32,000 bases of DNA from the NCBI RefSeq assembly GCF_000017845.1, contig NC_010546.1, positions 1,500,001-1,532,000 of the forward strand, written 5' to 3'. The notes beneath the pieces are model-generated. The model was not told the origin of the DNA. It saw only the letters and a program-made list of their open reading frames with translations, and searched no databases. A program made the position numbers and the translations under genes. Below, piece after piece: positions 15,486-22,194 of this stretch. How positions within the stretch are numbered: the first letter of the stretch is position 1; each line of letters opens with the position of its first letter. The stretch is from Crocosphaera subtropica ATCC 51142. Lineage in GTDB: Bacteria > Cyanobacteriota > Cyanobacteriia > Cyanobacteriales > Microcystaceae.

Positions 15486-15512
15486 TGATTAAGTGGGGAG
15501 ATAGAGATAAAA

Positions 15513-15527
15513 TGATAATCGTTCTCA
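15513..15527. promoter_or_regulatory. Zur-type box upstream of folE
   Basis: TGATAATCGTTCTCA matches at 13/15. It lies 28 nt upstream of the folE ATG. Confidence 0.5.
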
Positions 15528-15555
15528 ATTTTAGCACAAAGTGACATTCTCGTAG

Positions 15556-15580
15556 GTTGGGTTGAGGAACGAAACCCAAC
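15556..15580. repeat. GTTGGGTT-N9-AACCCAAC stem-loop
   Basis: 8-bp perfect stem with a 9-nt loop, 12 nt downstream of the atpA stop codon. No U-tract follows. From memory, it resembles a hairpin repeat common in cyanobacterial intergenic DNA. Confidence 0.5.
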
Positions 15581-15592
15581 AATATGATGAAC

Positions 15593-17101
15593 TTACATTT
15601 CTAGGGTTGATAATTGATGCAATAATGCCTCTTTATCTGCTTCACTTAAAGAGTCTCCTGATTGAATCTTGTCACAAATGTCGGGAAGTTTTTCTGTTAC
15701 CATCTGACAAATTTTTGTTTCTGCTTCTCTAATATTTTCTAGGGGGACATCATCTAAAATTCCTTCGTTGATAGCAAATAAAACAGCAATTTGTTCAGCA
15801 ACAGAAAGAGGATGAGATTGAGGTTGTTTGAGGATTTCTCGCACTCGTCTACCTCGTTCTAAGGTTTGTCGGGTATCTTCATCTAATTGGGTTCCAAAAC
15901 GGGCAAAAACTTCGACTTCTTGGAATTGAGAATAGGATAAGCGTAAATCTCCGGCTACTTCTCCATAAGCCCGTAATTGGGTTTTTCCGCCCACCCGTGA
16001 CACTGATTTTCCCACAGAAACCGCAGGTAAAATTCCTTTTTGATAGAGATCCGGAGACAGATAAATTTGACCGTCTGTGATAGAAATTAAATTAGTGGGA
16101 ATATAAGCAGAAATACTTTGAGCCTGGGTTTCAATAATGGGTAAGGCAGTTAAAGAACCGCCGCCCCATTCTTCTCGAAGATGGGTAGAACGTTCGAGTA
16201 ATCGAGAGTGAATGTAAAAAATATCGCCGGGATAGGCTTCTCTTCCGGGAGGACGGCGTAATAAGAGAGAAAGCTCTCGATAAGCCCAAGCATGACGGGT
16301 TAAATCATCATAGACAATTAAAACATCCCGTCCCTTTTCCATAAAATACTCCCCGATAGAAGTAGCTGCATAAGGGGTAATATATTGCAAACCGGGGGGA
16401 TCTTCTCCATCGGCTACGACCACGATAGAATAGTCTAGGGCTTCTGCTTGCCGTAATTGTTCGATAACCTTGGCAACCGCCGAAGTACGTTGACCAATGG
16501 CGCAATAAATACAAATAACATCCTTATCCTTTTGATTTAATATGGTATCCACTGCGATCGCCGTTTTTCCAATTTGGCGATCGCCGATAATCAGTTCTCG
16601 CTGTCCCCGGCCGACGGGTATTAACGCATCAACCACTTTTAACCCGGTTTGTAAGGGAACCGTAACCGGCGCACGATGGATAAAAGGGGGTGCTTTGCGT
16701 TCGATGGGAAATTGAGTTTCAGTAGAGATGGTTCCTTGATTATCTAAAGGACGACCTAAACCGTCAACAATACGTCCTAATAAGGCTTCTCCCACGGGAA
16801 TTTGTACAATTTTACCGGTTCGTTTAACTTCTTGACCGGCTTCTAAATGTTCGCTATTTCCTAATAGAATAACCCCTAATTCATCTACGTCTAAGTTAAA
16901 GGCAATCCCTAAAATATCCCCTGGAAAACGCACTAATTCATCGGCTTTAACGTTGGGTAAACCGATAACTTTAGCGACTCCTTGATCAATGGACTTCAGA
17001 ATCCCAATTTCTCGCGGTTGAATTTTGGCTTGATAGTTATTTAATGTTTCGTCAAGCTGAGTAAGGGTATTTTCAAGAACGGTTTGTAAGGTTTTTTCCA
17101 T
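15593..17101 (-). CDS. atpA: N-type ATPase alpha subunit
   Basis: 502 aa. It has the Walker A GDRQIGKT, and F1-alpha blocks are present throughout. The N-type assignment comes from the operon context. Confidence 0.92.
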
Positions 17102-17115
17102 TGTTTATTTTACAT

Positions 17116-17319
17116 TCATTGATTAGTTTCTTCAATTGCTTTGATCACTTGTTTAGTAATTTTAGGATGACGAATTTTTCCAGAGTGGAAAGGAACAACA
17201 ACTCGAATCTCATTTTTAAGATAAATTCGATGACTTCCCTGAGTTCTCAATAAAATAAAATCAGCATCAAACAGCAGTTTTTCTGCTTCTTTAGCGGTTA
17301 ATCTTGGCAGTTTAGGCAA
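17116..17319 (-). CDS. hicA: HicA-family mRNA interferase toxin
   Basis: 67 aa. LTAKEAEKLL..RTQGSHRIY..VVVPFHSGK.I fits the YcfA/HicA pattern, including the GSH catalytic His. Confidence 0.85.
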   Translation of the reverse strand: MPKLPRLTAKEAEKLLFDADFILLRTQGSHRIYLKNEIRVVVPFHSGKIRHPKITKQVIKAIEETNQ

Positions 17320-19383: not shown

Positions 19384-19680
19384 TTATTTCAAATCGGAGT
19401 TGGATAACTCAGGTTTCAAAACATTAGTTAAGACAATTCTTGCTAAGATAAATCCTCCTAAACAAATTAATATTCGTTGCCACTGTCCATCCATAATGAG
19501 ATAAAAACCAAACAGTGTCACAAAAATACGACCTAAAAAACTACCAATAAATAAACGCACTGGATAAACGGTTGTTGGCAGTTGTCGCACCGTAATCCAA
19601 AGACTACTAAAGTAAAAAGTTCCTAAAATGATGCCAAAAATAAAAGGAATTAAATTCTCTAAAATAAAGCCTATCATCAT
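19384..19680 (-). CDS. atpR: N-ATPase-specific AtpR subunit
   Basis: 98 aa with three TM segments and a membrane-embedded Arg (LWITVRQL). Its position between atpQ and atpB supports the call. Confidence 0.75.
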   Translation of the reverse strand: MMIGFILENLIPFIFGIILGTFYFSSLWITVRQLPTTVYPVRLFIGSFLGRIFVTLFGFYLIMDGQWQRILICLGGFILARIVLTNVLKPELSNSDLK

Positions 19681-19786
19681 AATTTTATCCTCATTAAGTT
19701 ATCAAATAGATAATTATTAATTTGTTAATTTGTTGTGCATTAATCATGGCTTATTTAATACTTTAGTACAAACGTAAAAACGCTTT

Positions 19787-19854
19787 CTCCCTGCTCCCTA
19801 CTCCCCACTCCCCTTCAATCTCAATTAGCAATTTAGATGCTTAATAGCTTAACC
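19787..19854. repeat. Heptamer-plus-tail repeat element inside the N-ATPase operon
   Basis: The heptamers are ctccctg ctcccta ctcccca ctcccct. A tail follows, tcaatctcaattagcaatttagatgcttaatagcttaacc, which is about 75 percent identical to 22318-22358. The element ends 2 nt from the atpQ stop codon. Confidence 0.75.
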
Positions 19855-19856
19855 TT

Positions 19857-20174
19857 TCATTCATCTTGACTCTCTCGTTGTATCCAATACCAAGCATTAA
19901 GACAGCCAATAATCACCCCCAAAAATAACATCATTAACGTCCAAGAATAGGGATCATTCAACTTAAGATCCAGCCAAACACCCACAGCAATACCAATGAG
20001 GGTAGGAATAGCCACGGACCACCCCACAATGCCAAACATACCCAAACCATACCAAATGGTGCGATCGCCTTCTTTTCGAGCAGTCATTTTGCGATTAGCT
20101 TTATCTTTCACGGCTTGTTGAAAGTTGTCTTGTCTTTTGTGATGGGTTTTTCGGGGTTCATTAGAGTCCTTCAC
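19857..20174 (-). CDS. atpQ: N-ATPase-specific AtpQ (AtpZ/AtpI-like) subunit
   Basis: 105 aa with a basic N-terminus followed by two TM helices (WYGLGMFGIVGWSVAIP..). It overlaps atpC by 14 nt. Confidence 0.75.
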   Translation of the reverse strand: MKDSNEPRKTHHKRQDNFQQAVKDKANRKMTARKEGDRTIWYGLGMFGIVGWSVAIPTLIGIAVGVWLDLKLNDPYSWTLMMLFLGVIIGCLNAWYWIQRESQDE

Positions 20175-20562
20175 CGCCTTCTCTCCCTATTTCTAAAATA
20201 CCTCTAGCTAACCCAGACTCCAATCTAGCGATCGCAGTACGGGTCATTTTTTGCTGTTCATTGAGTTGACGAAATTCCTCGGCAACGGTTTGATGTAAAC
20301 GGTCTAAATTGGCATCTTTAACGGCTCTCCCTGTAGAAACCATTACCGTTTGCCCACATTTAACTAAAATTCCTTCGTCAATGGCCATAAACACCTCTTT
20401 CCCCTCTACGGAACGATAGGATAAAATACTCGGAGTTAAAGCGGTAACAAAGTCAATATGGTTACTCAGAAGCCCAAAAGCCCCATTTTTCGCTTCTGCG
20501 TTAACTTGTTCGACCTCCTCAACTAAAAAGACCTTATTCGGAATTAAGACCTTAAGTTTCAT
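20161..20562 (-). CDS. atpC: N-type ATPase epsilon subunit
   Basis: 133 aa. [12 protein letters not shown].. is a beta-sandwich type N-terminus. It overlaps atpD by 11 nt. Confidence 0.85.
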
Positions 20563-21973
20563 TGTTTACTGCCTCCTTGTGCTTTTTCTTTACTTCGTCG
20601 ATGGAACCCAACATATATAAAGAACGCTCCGAATAGTCGGCAAATTCATCATTCAGAATGCGTTCACACCCTTCTAAAGCATCCTCTAAACTGACTAACT
20701 TACCTTTTTTTCCGGTAAACTGTTCCGTACTAAAAAAGGGTTGCGTTAAAAATCTTTCTAAACGACGGGCCCTCGCTACCGTTGCGCGATCGCTTTCTGA
20801 GAGTTCTTCCATTCCCAACATAGCGATAATATCTTTCAAATCTTCATAACTGGCCAGGGTACTTTTGATCCCTTGGGCAATGTTGTAATGTCTCTCTCCG
20901 ACAATGGTGGGTGAGAGCATTTTTGACCCTGACTGCAACGGGTCAATGGCAGGATATAACCCCTCACTAGCCCGTTTACGGGATAACACAATTGAAGCCG
21001 ATAGATGGCCAAAGGTTTGTACAGCTGCCGGGTCTGTAAAATCATCGGCTGGTACATAAACCGCTTGAACTGAGGTAATAGACCCTGTGGCAGTATTAGT
21101 AATACGTTCTTCGAGTTCGGCTAATTCTGTGCCTAGGGTGGGTTGATAACCTACTCGTGAGGGTAAACGTCCCATCAACCCTGATACTTCTTGCCCGGCT
21201 TGAATGAAACGAAAAATATTATCCATCAGCAACAAGACATCTTGTTTGAGTTCATCTCGAAAATATTCAGCCATCGTCAAGGCCGCATGACCCACCCGAA
21301 ACCTTGCCCCTGGGGGTTCGTCCATTTGACCAAACAACATGATGGTATTGTCTAAAACCCCTGCATCTTGCATTTCTCGATATAATTCTTCTGCTTCTCG
21401 GTTCCGTTCTCCAATGCCACAAAACAAACTGATTCCTTGATACTGACTCACCATATTGTGAATCATTTCTGTGATTAACACGGTTTTACCGACACCCGCA
21501 CCCCCAAATAGTCCGGCTTTACCTCCTTGTTCGATGGGGGTTAGGATATCAATGGCTTTGATGCCGGTGGCTAAAATATCTGAAGTGGTCGATCGTTGTT
21601 GTAGGGGTAAAGGGACTTGATGAATTGATCGCCAGTTTCCTTCGGTTATGGCTTCTTTGCCGTCTATGGTTTCCCCAAACACATTAAACACTCTGCCTAG
21701 GGTTTGCTTTCCTACCGGCACTTGTAACGGTTTTCCAACGTTGATGACCCGTGACCCCCTTGCTAACCCAGAAATCGGCGTTATACCAATCCCTCGAACC
21801 GTATGAGCATCTAAATGGTTGACCACTTCAATGATAATTTCTCCTTCATCCCCTGCCTGTAATTGACTGTATAAATCCGGTAATTTTTTTTCAAAATAAA
21901 TATCAACCACGCTGCTACGAATGGCAAGAACTTTACCACAATTAAGTTGAGAATAACCATTCGTTGCTTGCAT
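20552..21973 (-). CDS. atpD: N-type ATPase beta subunit
   Basis: It has the Walker A GGAGVGKT and the DELSE-equivalent MEELSESD. The ATG at 21973 is preferred. The ORF-track start at 21991 is a TTG. Confidence 0.92.
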
Positions 21974-22194
21974 ATACGTTAACCTTGTCAATTGATGTTT
22001 AAGGGTTACGTCTTAACCAATTTTTATGACTTTTTAGTTTGGATCGTTACGGCCGAATCTTAACTTACATTCCTATCTAACAACAAGGGTTTTCTTCAGA
22101 CAGTCTCCTTAATCTTTTATTTATAATTACAACAGTTATCAGTTATCACTTTTCAGTCGTATATTTAATATAATTTCTTACTTTTTTGAAAATT

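What the first reader, a model, noticed from the sequence alone, without database searches (positions are those of the whole stretch)
15486..21991. N-type ATPase operon that ends without atpG
The gene order beta, epsilon, AtpQ, AtpR, a, c, b, alpha, with no delta, is the signature of the laterally mobile N-ATPase operon. Comparative genomics defines that operon as atpD-C-Q-R-B-E-F-A-G. Here atpA stops at 15593. It is followed by only 107 bp (a hairpin repeat plus the folE operator and promoter) and then folE. No gamma-like ORF occurs anywhere in the window.

Without a dedicated gamma the complex should not assemble, unless atpG has been relocated or the housekeeping F-type gamma is borrowed. 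Together with the two insertions described in separate findings, the operon may be decaying, or it may have been truncated when the folE region was juxtaposed.
Basis: partly seen in the sequence, partly recalled or inferred. Interest (0 to 1): 0.7.

Follow-up and report, generated by a model that had tools for sequence, protein, structure and literature searches.

The report
N-ATPase operon with unlinked gamma gene
The second, sodium-type ATPase operon in this Crocosphaera (Cyanothece ATCC 51142) window really does end without its gamma gene, but an intact dedicated gamma gene lies about 157 genes away in the same genome, as already published, so the operon is split rather than broken.

Summary
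On the minus strand the window carries atpD-C-Q-R-B-E-F-(hicB-hicA)-A. All eight ATPase genes score above NCBI's 'alternate F1F0' model cut-offs. atpA stops at 15593, folE starts 107 bp later, and no gamma-like sequence occurs anywhere in the 32 kb.

The 'decaying or truncated operon' reading does not hold. The window's proteins are letter-for-letter those of Cyanothece sp. ATCC 51142, cce_1503 to cce_1512. Koumandou & Kossida (2014) already record this locus as 'IB-IE-I-R-OA-OC-OB-X-IA; IG', with gamma = cce_1345, 157 genes away.

That gamma is 299 aa and intact. It passes the N-type gamma model (342 bits, cut-off 282) and fails the ordinary gamma model. Sister strains CCY0110 and BG0011 also carry it on contigs separate from the operon, at 96% identity.

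Purifying selection acts on the gamma (dN/dS 0.06-0.11) and on all eight window genes. Published proteomics detect alpha, beta, b and c, and weakly gamma.

The atpA-folE junction recurs in independent assemblies and in BG0011, so it is not a misassembly.

Verdict: an ordinary split locus that is already known. One caveat is that gamma's transcript follows the neighbouring groESL, not the operon.

The parts
20552..21991 (-). atpD(N), N-ATPase beta subunit (= cce_1512, 479 aa)
   Evidence: TIGR03305 alt_F1F0_F1_bet 815 bits, cut-off 752. Walker A motif GGAGVGKT present. Sequence identical to Cy_512OP in the PMC4154653 supplement. dN/dS 0.03-0.06.
20161..20562 (-). atpC(N), epsilon subunit (= cce_1511, 133 aa)
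   Evidence: TIGR03166 129.9 bits, cut-off 100.1. Identical to Cy_512OP.
19857..20174 (-). atpQ (ATPase gene 1; = cce_1510)
   Evidence: PF09527 and TIGR02230, 142 bits against a cut-off of 46.7.
19681..19856 (-). atpQ-atpR spacer, about 100 bp longer than in BG0011, containing a GGGGAG-type G-rich repeat
   Evidence: The alignment with L001 breaks at window 19721-19823. The sequence reads GGGGAGTGGGGAGTAGGGAGCAGGGAG.
19384..19680 (-). atpR, the N-ATPase signature subunit (= cce_1509)
   Evidence: PF12966 AtpR 104.6 bits and TIGR03165 75.4 bits, cut-off 55.5.
18614..19306 (-). atpB(N), a subunit (= cce_1508, 230 aa)
   Evidence: TIGR03306 325.6 bits, cut-off 302.1. The conserved Arg motif LAIRLFGN is present.
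18297..18575 (-). atpE(N), c subunit with a full Na+ ligand set (= cce_1507, 92 aa)
   Evidence: TIGR03322 148.5 bits, cut-off 130.85. Glu in helix 1 (IGEG) plus the ESTAIY motif, which are the criteria of Dibrova 2010.
17559..18293 (-). atpF(N), long b subunit with a delta-like C-terminal part (= cce_1506, 244 aa)
   Evidence: TIGR03321 242.3 bits, cut-off 224.7.
17116..17536 (-). hicB-hicA toxin-antitoxin pair inserted between atpF and atpA (= cce_1505, cce_1504)
   Evidence: PF15919 and PF07927. This is the 'two-gene insertion' of Dibrova 2010. CCY0110, L084 and L003 carry a ParDE-type pair at the same site.
15593..17101 (-). atpA(N), alpha subunit and last gene of the cluster (= cce_1503, 502 aa)
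   Evidence: TIGR03324 836 bits, cut-off 750.5. dN/dS 0.05-0.07. 10 peptides and 90 spectra in the published proteome.
15486..15592 (-). 107-bp atpA-folE spacer. Homology with genomes that keep atpG next to atpA ends at about 15571. It contains the hairpin at 15556-15580 and a Zur/Fur-like box at 15513-15527.
14847..15485 (-). folE (GTP cyclohydrolase I; cce_1501 'folE2'), first gene of a zinc-starvation-type gene island. Not part of the ATPase.
   Evidence: TIGR00063 270.8 bits. Annotation taken from the PMC3043056 table.

Best explanation
The window is the N-ATPase locus of Crocosphaera subtropica (Cyanothece sp.) ATCC 51142, or a strain with identical proteins. The enzyme is encoded by a split locus. 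Eight subunits sit here as atpD-C-Q-R-B-E-F-(hicBA)-A (cce_1512 to cce_1503). The ninth, a dedicated N-type gamma (cce_1345, 299 aa), sits about 157 genes away beside groESL and an IS605-type transposase gene.

The split arose by genome rearrangement in the Crocosphaera lineage. Most N-ATPase operons have atpG 25-270 nt after atpA. Two Crocosphaera relatives have atpG inverted and convergent 0.9-1.9 kb after atpA. In ATCC 51142, BG0011 and CCY0110 the two genes have been pulled fully apart. In the window, a Zur-type zinc-starvation island that begins with folE now abuts atpA.

Shown here: the genes and their family membership, the absence of gamma from the window, the existence and intactness of the unlinked gamma, purifying selection on all subunits, the reality of the junction, and detection of the proteins.

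Inferred: the nine products assemble into a working Na+-pumping ATPase. This rests on analogy with contiguous N-ATPase operons and on the complete Na+ site in subunit c. The order of the rearrangement steps is also inferred.
For: - **Family membership.** All eight genes pass the N-type models.
- **Identity of the window.** The beta, epsilon, c, a, AtpQ and alpha sequences in the window equal the 'Cy_512OP' rows of the Koumandou & Kossida 2014 supplement. That supplement lists cce_1511/1512/1503/1506/1507/1508/1510 with matching lengths, gives gamma as cce_1345, and notates the locus 'IB-IE-I-R-OA-OC-OB-X-IA; IG ... 157'.
- **The unlinked gamma.** The 90% identity cluster of the Crocosphaera N-type gamma contains ACB50695.1/WP_009544165.1 (ATCC 51142), WP_008272626.1 (CCY0110) and WP_107667601.1 (BG0011). 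WP_009544165.1 scores 342 bits on TIGR03323 (cut-off 282) and 150 bits on ordinary gamma TIGR01146 (cut-off 194).
- **Sister strains.** In CCY0110 and BG0011 the gamma gene is on a different contig from the operon.
- **Co-divergence.** Gamma identity to 51142 falls in broadly the same order as alpha identity across relatives: 96.3, 95.7, 94.0, 90.3% against 98.6, 95.8, 96.8, 92.2%. CCY0110 and L084 swap places.
- **Selection.** dN/dS is 0.06-0.11 for gamma, 0.03-0.07 for alpha, beta, a, c and epsilon, and 0.1-0.46 for b, AtpQ and AtpR.
- **Proteome.** Table S2 of Stöckel 2011 lists cce_1503 (10 peptides/90 spectra), cce_1512 (20/102), cce_1506 (6/24), cce_1507 (3/47) and cce_1345 (2/2).
- **Junction.** It is reproduced at 100% identity in Logan assemblies of SRR26036484 and SRR26036485, and at about 93% in BG0011.
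- **Intermediate arrangements.** L084 and L003 have a convergent gamma.
- **Precedent in the same genome.** The housekeeping F-ATPase is itself split, cce_2812-2813 and cce_4482-4489, 1668 genes apart.
Against: - I could not read the ATCC 51142 chromosome around cce_1345. Exact look-ups of both protein versions returned nothing. Its position, strand and promoter therefore come from locus-tag numbering and published tables, not from sequence.
- Gamma is only weakly detected, with 2 spectra against 90-102 for alpha and beta. That is less than the 1:3:3 stoichiometry would predict.
- In a continuous-light microarray series the gamma transcript correlates with the adjacent groEL (r = 0.95) and is anticorrelated with atpC and atpD of the operon (r = -0.72). 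Amplitudes are small, so co-expression is not demonstrated.
- No biochemical evidence exists for this enzyme in this organism.
Confidence: 0.92

Rival explanations
1. The operon is a decaying or truncated remnant. atpG was lost when the folE region was juxtaposed, and the remaining genes no longer make a working enzyme.
For: There is no gamma in 32 kb. A toxin-antitoxin pair and a repeat-containing spacer sit inside the operon. Homology with genomes that keep atpG nearby ends 21 nt after the atpA stop.
Against: All eight ORFs are full length and pass equivalog-level models. dN/dS is 0.0-0.46 and about 0.05 for the catalytic subunits. Alpha, beta, b and c are detected by several peptides each. 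An intact N-type gamma exists elsewhere in the genome and in sister strains.
Confidence: 0.03
2. The N-ATPase borrows the housekeeping F-type gamma (cce_4489), and cce_1345 is a functionless leftover.
For: cce_1345 is barely detected, with 2 spectra. Its mRNA follows groESL rather than the operon.
Against: cce_1345 orthologues are kept intact under purifying selection (ω 0.06-0.11), including between genomes where the gene is detached (L087 vs L088, ω 0.08). Gamma co-diverges with N-type alpha. N-type and F-type gammas are distinct enough that cce_1345 fails the ordinary gamma model.
Confidence: 0.04
3. The atpA-folE junction is an assembly error and atpG really follows atpA.
For: None was found. 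The BG0011 contig ends about 200 bp after atpA, which on its own might suggest a repeat.
Against: Two independent Logan assemblies cross the junction at 100% identity (L081, L083). The BG0011 contig also runs from atpA into folE (window 15396). The published annotation numbers folE2 as cce_1501 and atpA2 as cce_1503.
Confidence: 0.01

Closest known systems
Canonical N-ATPase operon atpDCQRBEFAG (Methanosarcina, Burkholderia, Synechococcus PCC 7002 pAQ7, Aphanothece halophytica Na+-ATPase)
   Same: Same nine subunit families: AtpR and AtpQ are present, there is no delta, the b subunit is long, and the c subunit carries Glu in helix 1 plus ESTxxY. The gene order from atpD to atpA is the same.
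   Different: atpG is not the last gene of the cluster and lies about 157 genes away. A HicAB pair interrupts atpF-atpA.
Crocosphaera relatives GCA_002172675.1 (L084) and MAG MO_192.B18 (L003)
   Same: Orthologous operon with 92-97% identical alpha. A toxin-antitoxin insert sits at the same atpF-atpA site, and the same SLH-porin and pyrE flank lies upstream of atpD.
   Different: Their atpG is still adjacent, 0.9-1.9 kb after atpA, but inverted and so convergent. The insert is a ParDE-type pair, with an IS605-like transposase ORF as well in L003, rather than HicAB.
Split housekeeping F-ATPase loci of cyanobacteria (atp1 / atp2)
   Same: Subunits of one rotary ATPase are encoded at unlinked loci and still assemble. 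In this genome the F-type genes are cce_2812-2813 and cce_4482-4489, 1668 genes apart.
   Different: That split is ancient and shared by cyanobacteria and chloroplasts (general knowledge). The N-type split is recent, lineage-specific, and detaches a single gene.
Other incomplete or split N-ATPase loci listed by Koumandou & Kossida 2014 (Nitrosococcus halophilus 'one locus split', Chlorobaculum tepidum 'partial')
   Same: Departures from the strict nine-gene operon have already been catalogued.
   Different: Different subunits are affected. I did not examine those genomes.

Membership tests
N-ATPase (alternate F1Fo ATPase; Dibrova et al. 2010) | atpR (urf2) gene present in the cluster | tested here: met
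   PF12966 104.6 bits and TIGR03165 75.4 bits, cut-off 55.5, at 19384-19680.
N-ATPase (alternate F1Fo ATPase; Dibrova et al. 2010) | atpQ ('gene 1', PF09527) in place of atpI | tested here: met
   PF09527 55.3 bits and TIGR02230 142 bits at 19857-20174.
N-ATPase (alternate F1Fo ATPase; Dibrova et al. 2010) | No delta (atpH) gene, and an unusually long b subunit | tested here: met
   No delta-like ORF lies between atpF and atpA. The b subunit is 244 aa and passes TIGR03321, 242 bits against a cut-off of 225.
N-ATPase (alternate F1Fo ATPase; Dibrova et al. 2010) | Alpha, beta, epsilon, a and c belong to the N-type clades rather than the F-type | tested here: met
   Each exceeds the cut-off of its 'alternate F1F0' exception model: TIGR03324, 03305, 03166, 03306, 03322.
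N-ATPase (alternate F1Fo ATPase; Dibrova et al. 2010) | c subunit with Glu in helix 1 plus the ESTxxY Na+ motif | tested here: met
   The sequence reads ...APAIGEGLAL... and ...LVESTAIYCF..., matching the criterion text.
N-ATPase (alternate F1Fo ATPase; Dibrova et al. 2010) | Contiguous gene order atpD-C-Q-R-B-E-F-A-G | tested here: not met
   The order holds from atpD to atpA, with a hicBA insert. No atpG is in the window. In 80 related loci atpG usually follows atpA by 25-270 nt.
N-ATPase (alternate F1Fo ATPase; Dibrova et al. 2010) | A dedicated N-type gamma encoded in the genome | tested here: met
   WP_009544165.1 / cce_1345 of ATCC 51142 scores 342 bits on TIGR03323, cut-off 282. The PMC4154653 supplement assigns it to this N-ATPase. 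Its genomic DNA could not be read here.
N-ATPase (alternate F1Fo ATPase; Dibrova et al. 2010) | Always a second enzyme alongside a regular F- or A-type ATPase | not testable with these tools
   The regular genes lie outside the window. The published table lists the F-type genes cce_2812-2813 and cce_4482-4489 in ATCC 51142.

The most novel reading that the evidence does not exclude
In ATCC 51142 the detached atpG has been captured by the groESL transcription unit. Its mRNA follows groEL (r = 0.95) and runs opposite to the operon's atpD/atpC (r = -0.72). Supply of the single-copy central stalk, and so assembly of the Na+ pump, would then be gated by a heat-shock or diel signal rather than by the operon promoter. 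This would be an evolved post-rearrangement control point rather than a neutral split.
Probability: 0.1. Interest if true: 0.4.

Novelty: already known. Interest (0 to 1): 0.12.

Why it matters
It matters little beyond correct annotation. The result warns that an apparently missing subunit in a conserved operon should be sought genome-wide before inferring decay. It also shows that the 'strictly conserved' nine-gene N-ATPase operon is loosened in cyanobacteria. There, atpG is often displaced, toxin-antitoxin pairs occupy the atpF-atpA spacer, and other genes occupy the atpQ-atpR spacer. For work on salt tolerance in Crocosphaera, cce_1345 must be included with cce_1503-1512 in any knockout or heterologous-expression construct.

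Tried and rejected
- **Gamma remnant in the window.** TBLASTN with four N-type gammas found only chance-level hits.
- **Reading the ATCC 51142 chromosome around gamma.** Exact look-ups of WP_009544165.1 (P0123) and ACB50695.1 (P0122) returned no record. The window's own alpha is found only on short Logan contigs, so the source genome seems to be withheld from the position index.
- **atpG just beyond the left edge of the window.** This idea came from L085, where gamma lies 4 kb from a hemB-cobW-thrS block that is 95% identical to window 547-6393. I rejected it for this genome because synteny with L085 stops at window 547, and published numbering puts gamma 157 genes away.
- **Linking L085's gamma to an operon on the same 61-kb contig.** A look-up of the identical c subunit did not return that contig.
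- **Full-text search for the cce_ locus tags.** It found nothing in main texts; the tags appear only in supplements. One 2025 proteome paper had no supplement held.
- **Hairpin after atpA as a terminator or repeat element.** It has no T tract, z = -1.27, and a single copy in the window.

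
Full report
**1. What is in the window**

The minus strand between 15593 and 21991 holds ten consecutive ORFs. Pfam and NCBIfam identify them as follows:

| Coordinates | Gene |
|---|---|
| 20552-21991 | beta |
| 20161-20562 | epsilon |
| 19857-20174 | AtpQ |
| 19384-19680 | AtpR |
| 18614-19306 | a |
| 18297-18575 | c |
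| 17559-18293 | b |
| 17312-17536 | HicB antitoxin |
| 17116-17319 | HicA toxin |
| 15593-17101 | alpha |

Each ATPase subunit scores above the curated cut-off of NCBI's 'alternate F1F0 ATPase' model. For example, alpha scores 836 bits on TIGR03324 against a cut-off of 750.5, and beta scores 815 bits on TIGR03305 against 752. The c subunit has Glu in helix 1 and the ESTAIY motif. Dibrova et al. 2010 use this ligand set to call a Na+-binding N-type c subunit.

atpA ends at 15593. folE (TIGR00063, 271 bits) starts at 15485, leaving 107 bp between them. TBLASTN of four N-type gamma proteins against all 32 kb gave only noise, with a best E of 0.005.

**2. Is the junction real?**

An exact look-up of the window's alpha protein returned three Logan contigs. 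Two of them (from SRR26036484 and SRR26036485) run from atpA through the spacer into folE and the next gene. They match the window at 100% over 3.5-4.3 kb. The Cyanothece sp. BG0011 contig aligns at about 93% from atpD through atpA and on into folE, as far as window 15396, where that contig ends. Misassembly is excluded.

**3. Whose genome is it, and where is gamma?**

The nearest alpha proteins are from Cyanothece sp. BG0011 (98.6%), GCA_002172675.1 (96.8%), Crocosphaera chwakensis CCY0110 (95.8%) and a Crocosphaera MAG (92.2%).

The supplementary alignments of Koumandou & Kossida 2014 (PMC4154653) contain rows labelled Cy_512OP for Cyanothece sp. ATCC 51142. Their a, c, alpha, beta, epsilon and AtpQ sequences read identically to the window's translations. 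The accompanying table gives cce_1511 (133 aa), cce_1512 (479), cce_1503 (502), cce_1506 (244), cce_1507 (92) and cce_1508 (230), the same lengths as here. Ten genes from cce_1503 to cce_1512 match the ten ORFs.

The same table writes the locus as 'IB-IE-I-R-OA-OC-OB-X-IA; IG (missing ID) (X = two hypotheticals)'. It gives gamma as cce_1345 and a separation of 157. The gamma-less cluster and its unlinked gamma are thus already on record. The two-gene insertion was noted still earlier by Dibrova et al. 2010.

**4. Is cce_1345 a genuine N-type gamma?**

A Crocosphaera MAG (L003) has a gamma-like ORF 1.9 kb beyond atpA on the opposite strand. Searching with it recovered a 90% identity cluster whose members include:

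- ACB50695.1 / WP_009544165.1 from ATCC 51142
- WP_008272626.1 from CCY0110
- WP_107667601.1 from BG0011

WP_009544165.1 is 299 aa. It scores 342 bits on TIGR03323 'alternate F1F0 ATPase, F1 subunit gamma' (cut-off 282) and only 150 bits on the ordinary gamma model TIGR01146 (cut-off 194). The '50-aa N-terminal extension' mentioned in the 2014 paper is an artefact of the first annotation. RefSeq and all orthologues start at MSQTPESL.

Identity of the 51142 gamma to relatives falls in broadly the same order as alpha identity, except that CCY0110 and GCA_002172675.1 swap places. Gamma is therefore the co-evolving partner and not a foreign copy.

| Relative | Gamma identity to 51142 | Alpha identity to window |
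|---|---|---|
| BG0011 | 96.3% | 98.6% |
| CCY0110 | 95.7% | 95.8% |
| GCA_002172675.1 | 94.0% | 96.8% |
| MAG MO_192.B18 (L003) | 90.3% | 92.2% |

**5. Decay or function?**

Nei-Gojobori dN/dS values between the window and its relatives are given below.

| Gene | dN/dS |
|---|---|
| alpha | 0.05-0.07 |
| beta | 0.03-0.06 |
| epsilon | 0.02-0.07 |
| a | 0.03-0.07 |
| c | 0-0.05 |
| AtpQ | 0.10-0.27 |
| AtpR | 0.10-0.27 |
| b | 0.23-0.46 |
| detached gamma | 0.06-0.11 |

The gamma range includes comparisons between genomes in which it is unlinked (0.08).

Table S2 of Stöckel et al. 2011 (PMC3043056) lists peptides and spectra for these proteins.

| Protein | Peptides | Spectra |
|---|---|---|
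| cce_1503 (alpha) | 10 | 90 |
| cce_1512 (beta) | 20 | 102 |
| cce_1506 (b) | 6 | 24 |
| cce_1507 (c) | 3 | 47 |
| cce_1504 (HicA) | 2 | 2 |
| cce_1345 (gamma) | 2 | 2 |

The operon is thus expressed and conserved. Gamma is seen, but weakly.

**6. Co-expression: the caveat**

In the continuous-light microarray tables of Krishnakumar et al. 2015 (PMC4431719), the cce_1345 profile correlates with its neighbour groEL (r = 0.95). It is anticorrelated with cce_1511 and cce_1512 (r = -0.72 each). All amplitudes are below about 0.7 log2 units.

This shows that gamma is transcribed. It also suggests that gamma may be read from, or together with, groESL rather than co-regulated with the operon. I could not check the strand or the spacer because the 51142 sequence around cce_1345 was not retrievable.

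**7. How the split arose (inference from synteny)**

Across 80 related loci, atpG normally follows atpA by 25-270 nt. In cyanobacteria it is often displaced by 1.8-8 kb (L003, L004, L014, L016, L018, L019, L029, L041). In L008, L046 and L057 it is absent within 10 kb.

Within Crocosphaera the arrangements are:

- **GCA_002172675.1 (L084).** The order is [AMP-ligase ... gamma(+)] then [135-aa ORF, atpA(-) ... atpD(-)], so gamma is convergent 0.9 kb from atpA.
- **CCY0110 and BG0011.** Both keep the same upstream flank of gamma (AMP-ligase, HicA/HicB-like, 145-aa ORF). Downstream of gamma, CCY0110 has znuA-znuC-znuB and an IS66 transposase, and BG0011 has an SBP_bac_3 gene. Their operons are on other contigs. 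In CCY0110 the operon is followed by a Laminin_G fragment and a DDE transposase fragment.
- **An ENA metagenome contig (L085).** Gamma lies between gap and DUF29-znuACB-hemB-cobW-cobW-...-thrS. That last block is 95% identical to window 547-6393.

Homology of CCY0110 and L084 with the window ends 21-22 nt after the atpA stop, inside the left arm of the hairpin.

The simplest reading has two stages. First, atpG was inverted. Then one or more IS-associated rearrangements broke the gamma/atpA junction. In the 51142/BG0011 lineage this left a zinc-starvation island next to atpA. The order of these events is not established.

**8. The neighbour**

Downstream of atpA the window carries:

- folE
- a ZigA/CobW-like GTPase with a His-rich stretch (13753-14778)
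- a ThrRS paralogue (6164-8164)
- two more cobW genes
- a metallophosphoesterase
- porphobilinogen synthase (540-1529)

Fur/Zur-type palindromes are enriched, with 22 matches against 5 expected. They cluster in front of these genes, including 15513-15527, 28 nt before folE. From general knowledge, this matches the Zur regulon of zinc-sparing paralogues described in Anabaena. folE is therefore an independent, metal-regulated unit and not part of the ATPase operon.

**9. Verdict**

The emphasised interpretation (decay, truncation, an enzyme that cannot assemble) is not supported. This is a known member of a known family with a known departure in gene order. Interest is low.

The only loose end of some interest is whether the relocated gamma has acquired different regulation through groESL.

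Noticed in passing
window 17116-17536; L002/L091 11104-11678; L084 13412-13893; L003 2127-4190: The atpF-atpA spacer holds different toxin-antitoxin cassettes in sister genomes. ATCC 51142 and BG0011 have HicB/HicA. CCY0110 and GCA_002172675.1 have a ParD/ParE-type pair. MAG L003 has a decayed ParDE plus a 457-aa IS605 OrfB/TnpB-like ORF. The 'two-gene insertion in two Cyanothece strains' of Dibrova 2010 is therefore two unrelated cassettes at one site.
   Followed up: partly
window 479-532, 1546-1646, 8016-8082, 15513-15527: Fur/Zur-type palindromes (TGATAATNATTATCA, up to 3 mismatches) are enriched, 22 found against about 5 expected. They cluster upstream of hemB, the thrS paralogue, a cobW gene and folE. 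Window 1-15485 looks like a Zur-regulated island of zinc-sparing paralogues: folE, three to four COG0523/cobW genes, thrS, hemB and a metallophosphoesterase.
   Followed up: partly
window 19681-19856 (atpQ-atpR spacer); L084, about 160-195 nt after the atpA stop: The window's atpQ-atpR spacer is about 100 bp longer than in BG0011. It carries a G-rich repeat, GGGGAGTGGGGAGTAGGGAGCAGGGAG. A very similar run, GAGCGGGGGAGCGGGGAGCAGGGAG, lies just after atpA in GCA_002172675.1. This suggests a small dispersed repeat family in Crocosphaera genomes.
   Followed up: no
L008 5109-6314, L009 6073-7278, L013 4962-6242, L024 6315-7526, L029 6318-7541, L041 6327-7568, L075 4570-5700: In several filamentous cyanobacteria and one Desulfobacteraceae MAG, a conserved membrane protein of about 376-426 aa is inserted between atpQ and atpR of the N-ATPase operon. 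From its sequence it looks like a cation/proton antiporter, but I did not scan it against any family library. It may be a functionally linked accessory gene.
   Followed up: no
Outside the window: cce_1343-1346 of ATCC 51142 (published tables): The detached gamma gene sits directly after groES-groEL1 and before an IS605 OrfB-domain gene. Its microarray profile follows groEL (r = 0.95) and runs opposite to the N-ATPase atpC/atpD (r = -0.72).
   Followed up: partly
window 10067-12580 (minus strand): An 837-aa ORF combines a sigma-54-activator-type AAA+ domain (NorR/NtrC-like, residues about 110-400) with a NapH/MauN-type ferredoxin membrane domain (residues about 460-645). The published table annotates it as 'nitrogen assimilation regulatory protein' (cce_1498). 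This is an unusual architecture for a cyanobacterium. By general knowledge, cyanobacteria lack sigma-54.
   Followed up: no
L008, L046, L057 (10 kb downstream of atpA): Three further cyanobacterial N-ATPase loci show no atpG within 10 kb after atpA: Coleofasciculus MAG, Crocosphaera MAG MO_199.B6 and Spirulina MAG. Unlinked gamma genes may therefore be recurrent in cyanobacteria and not peculiar to ATCC 51142.
   Followed up: no
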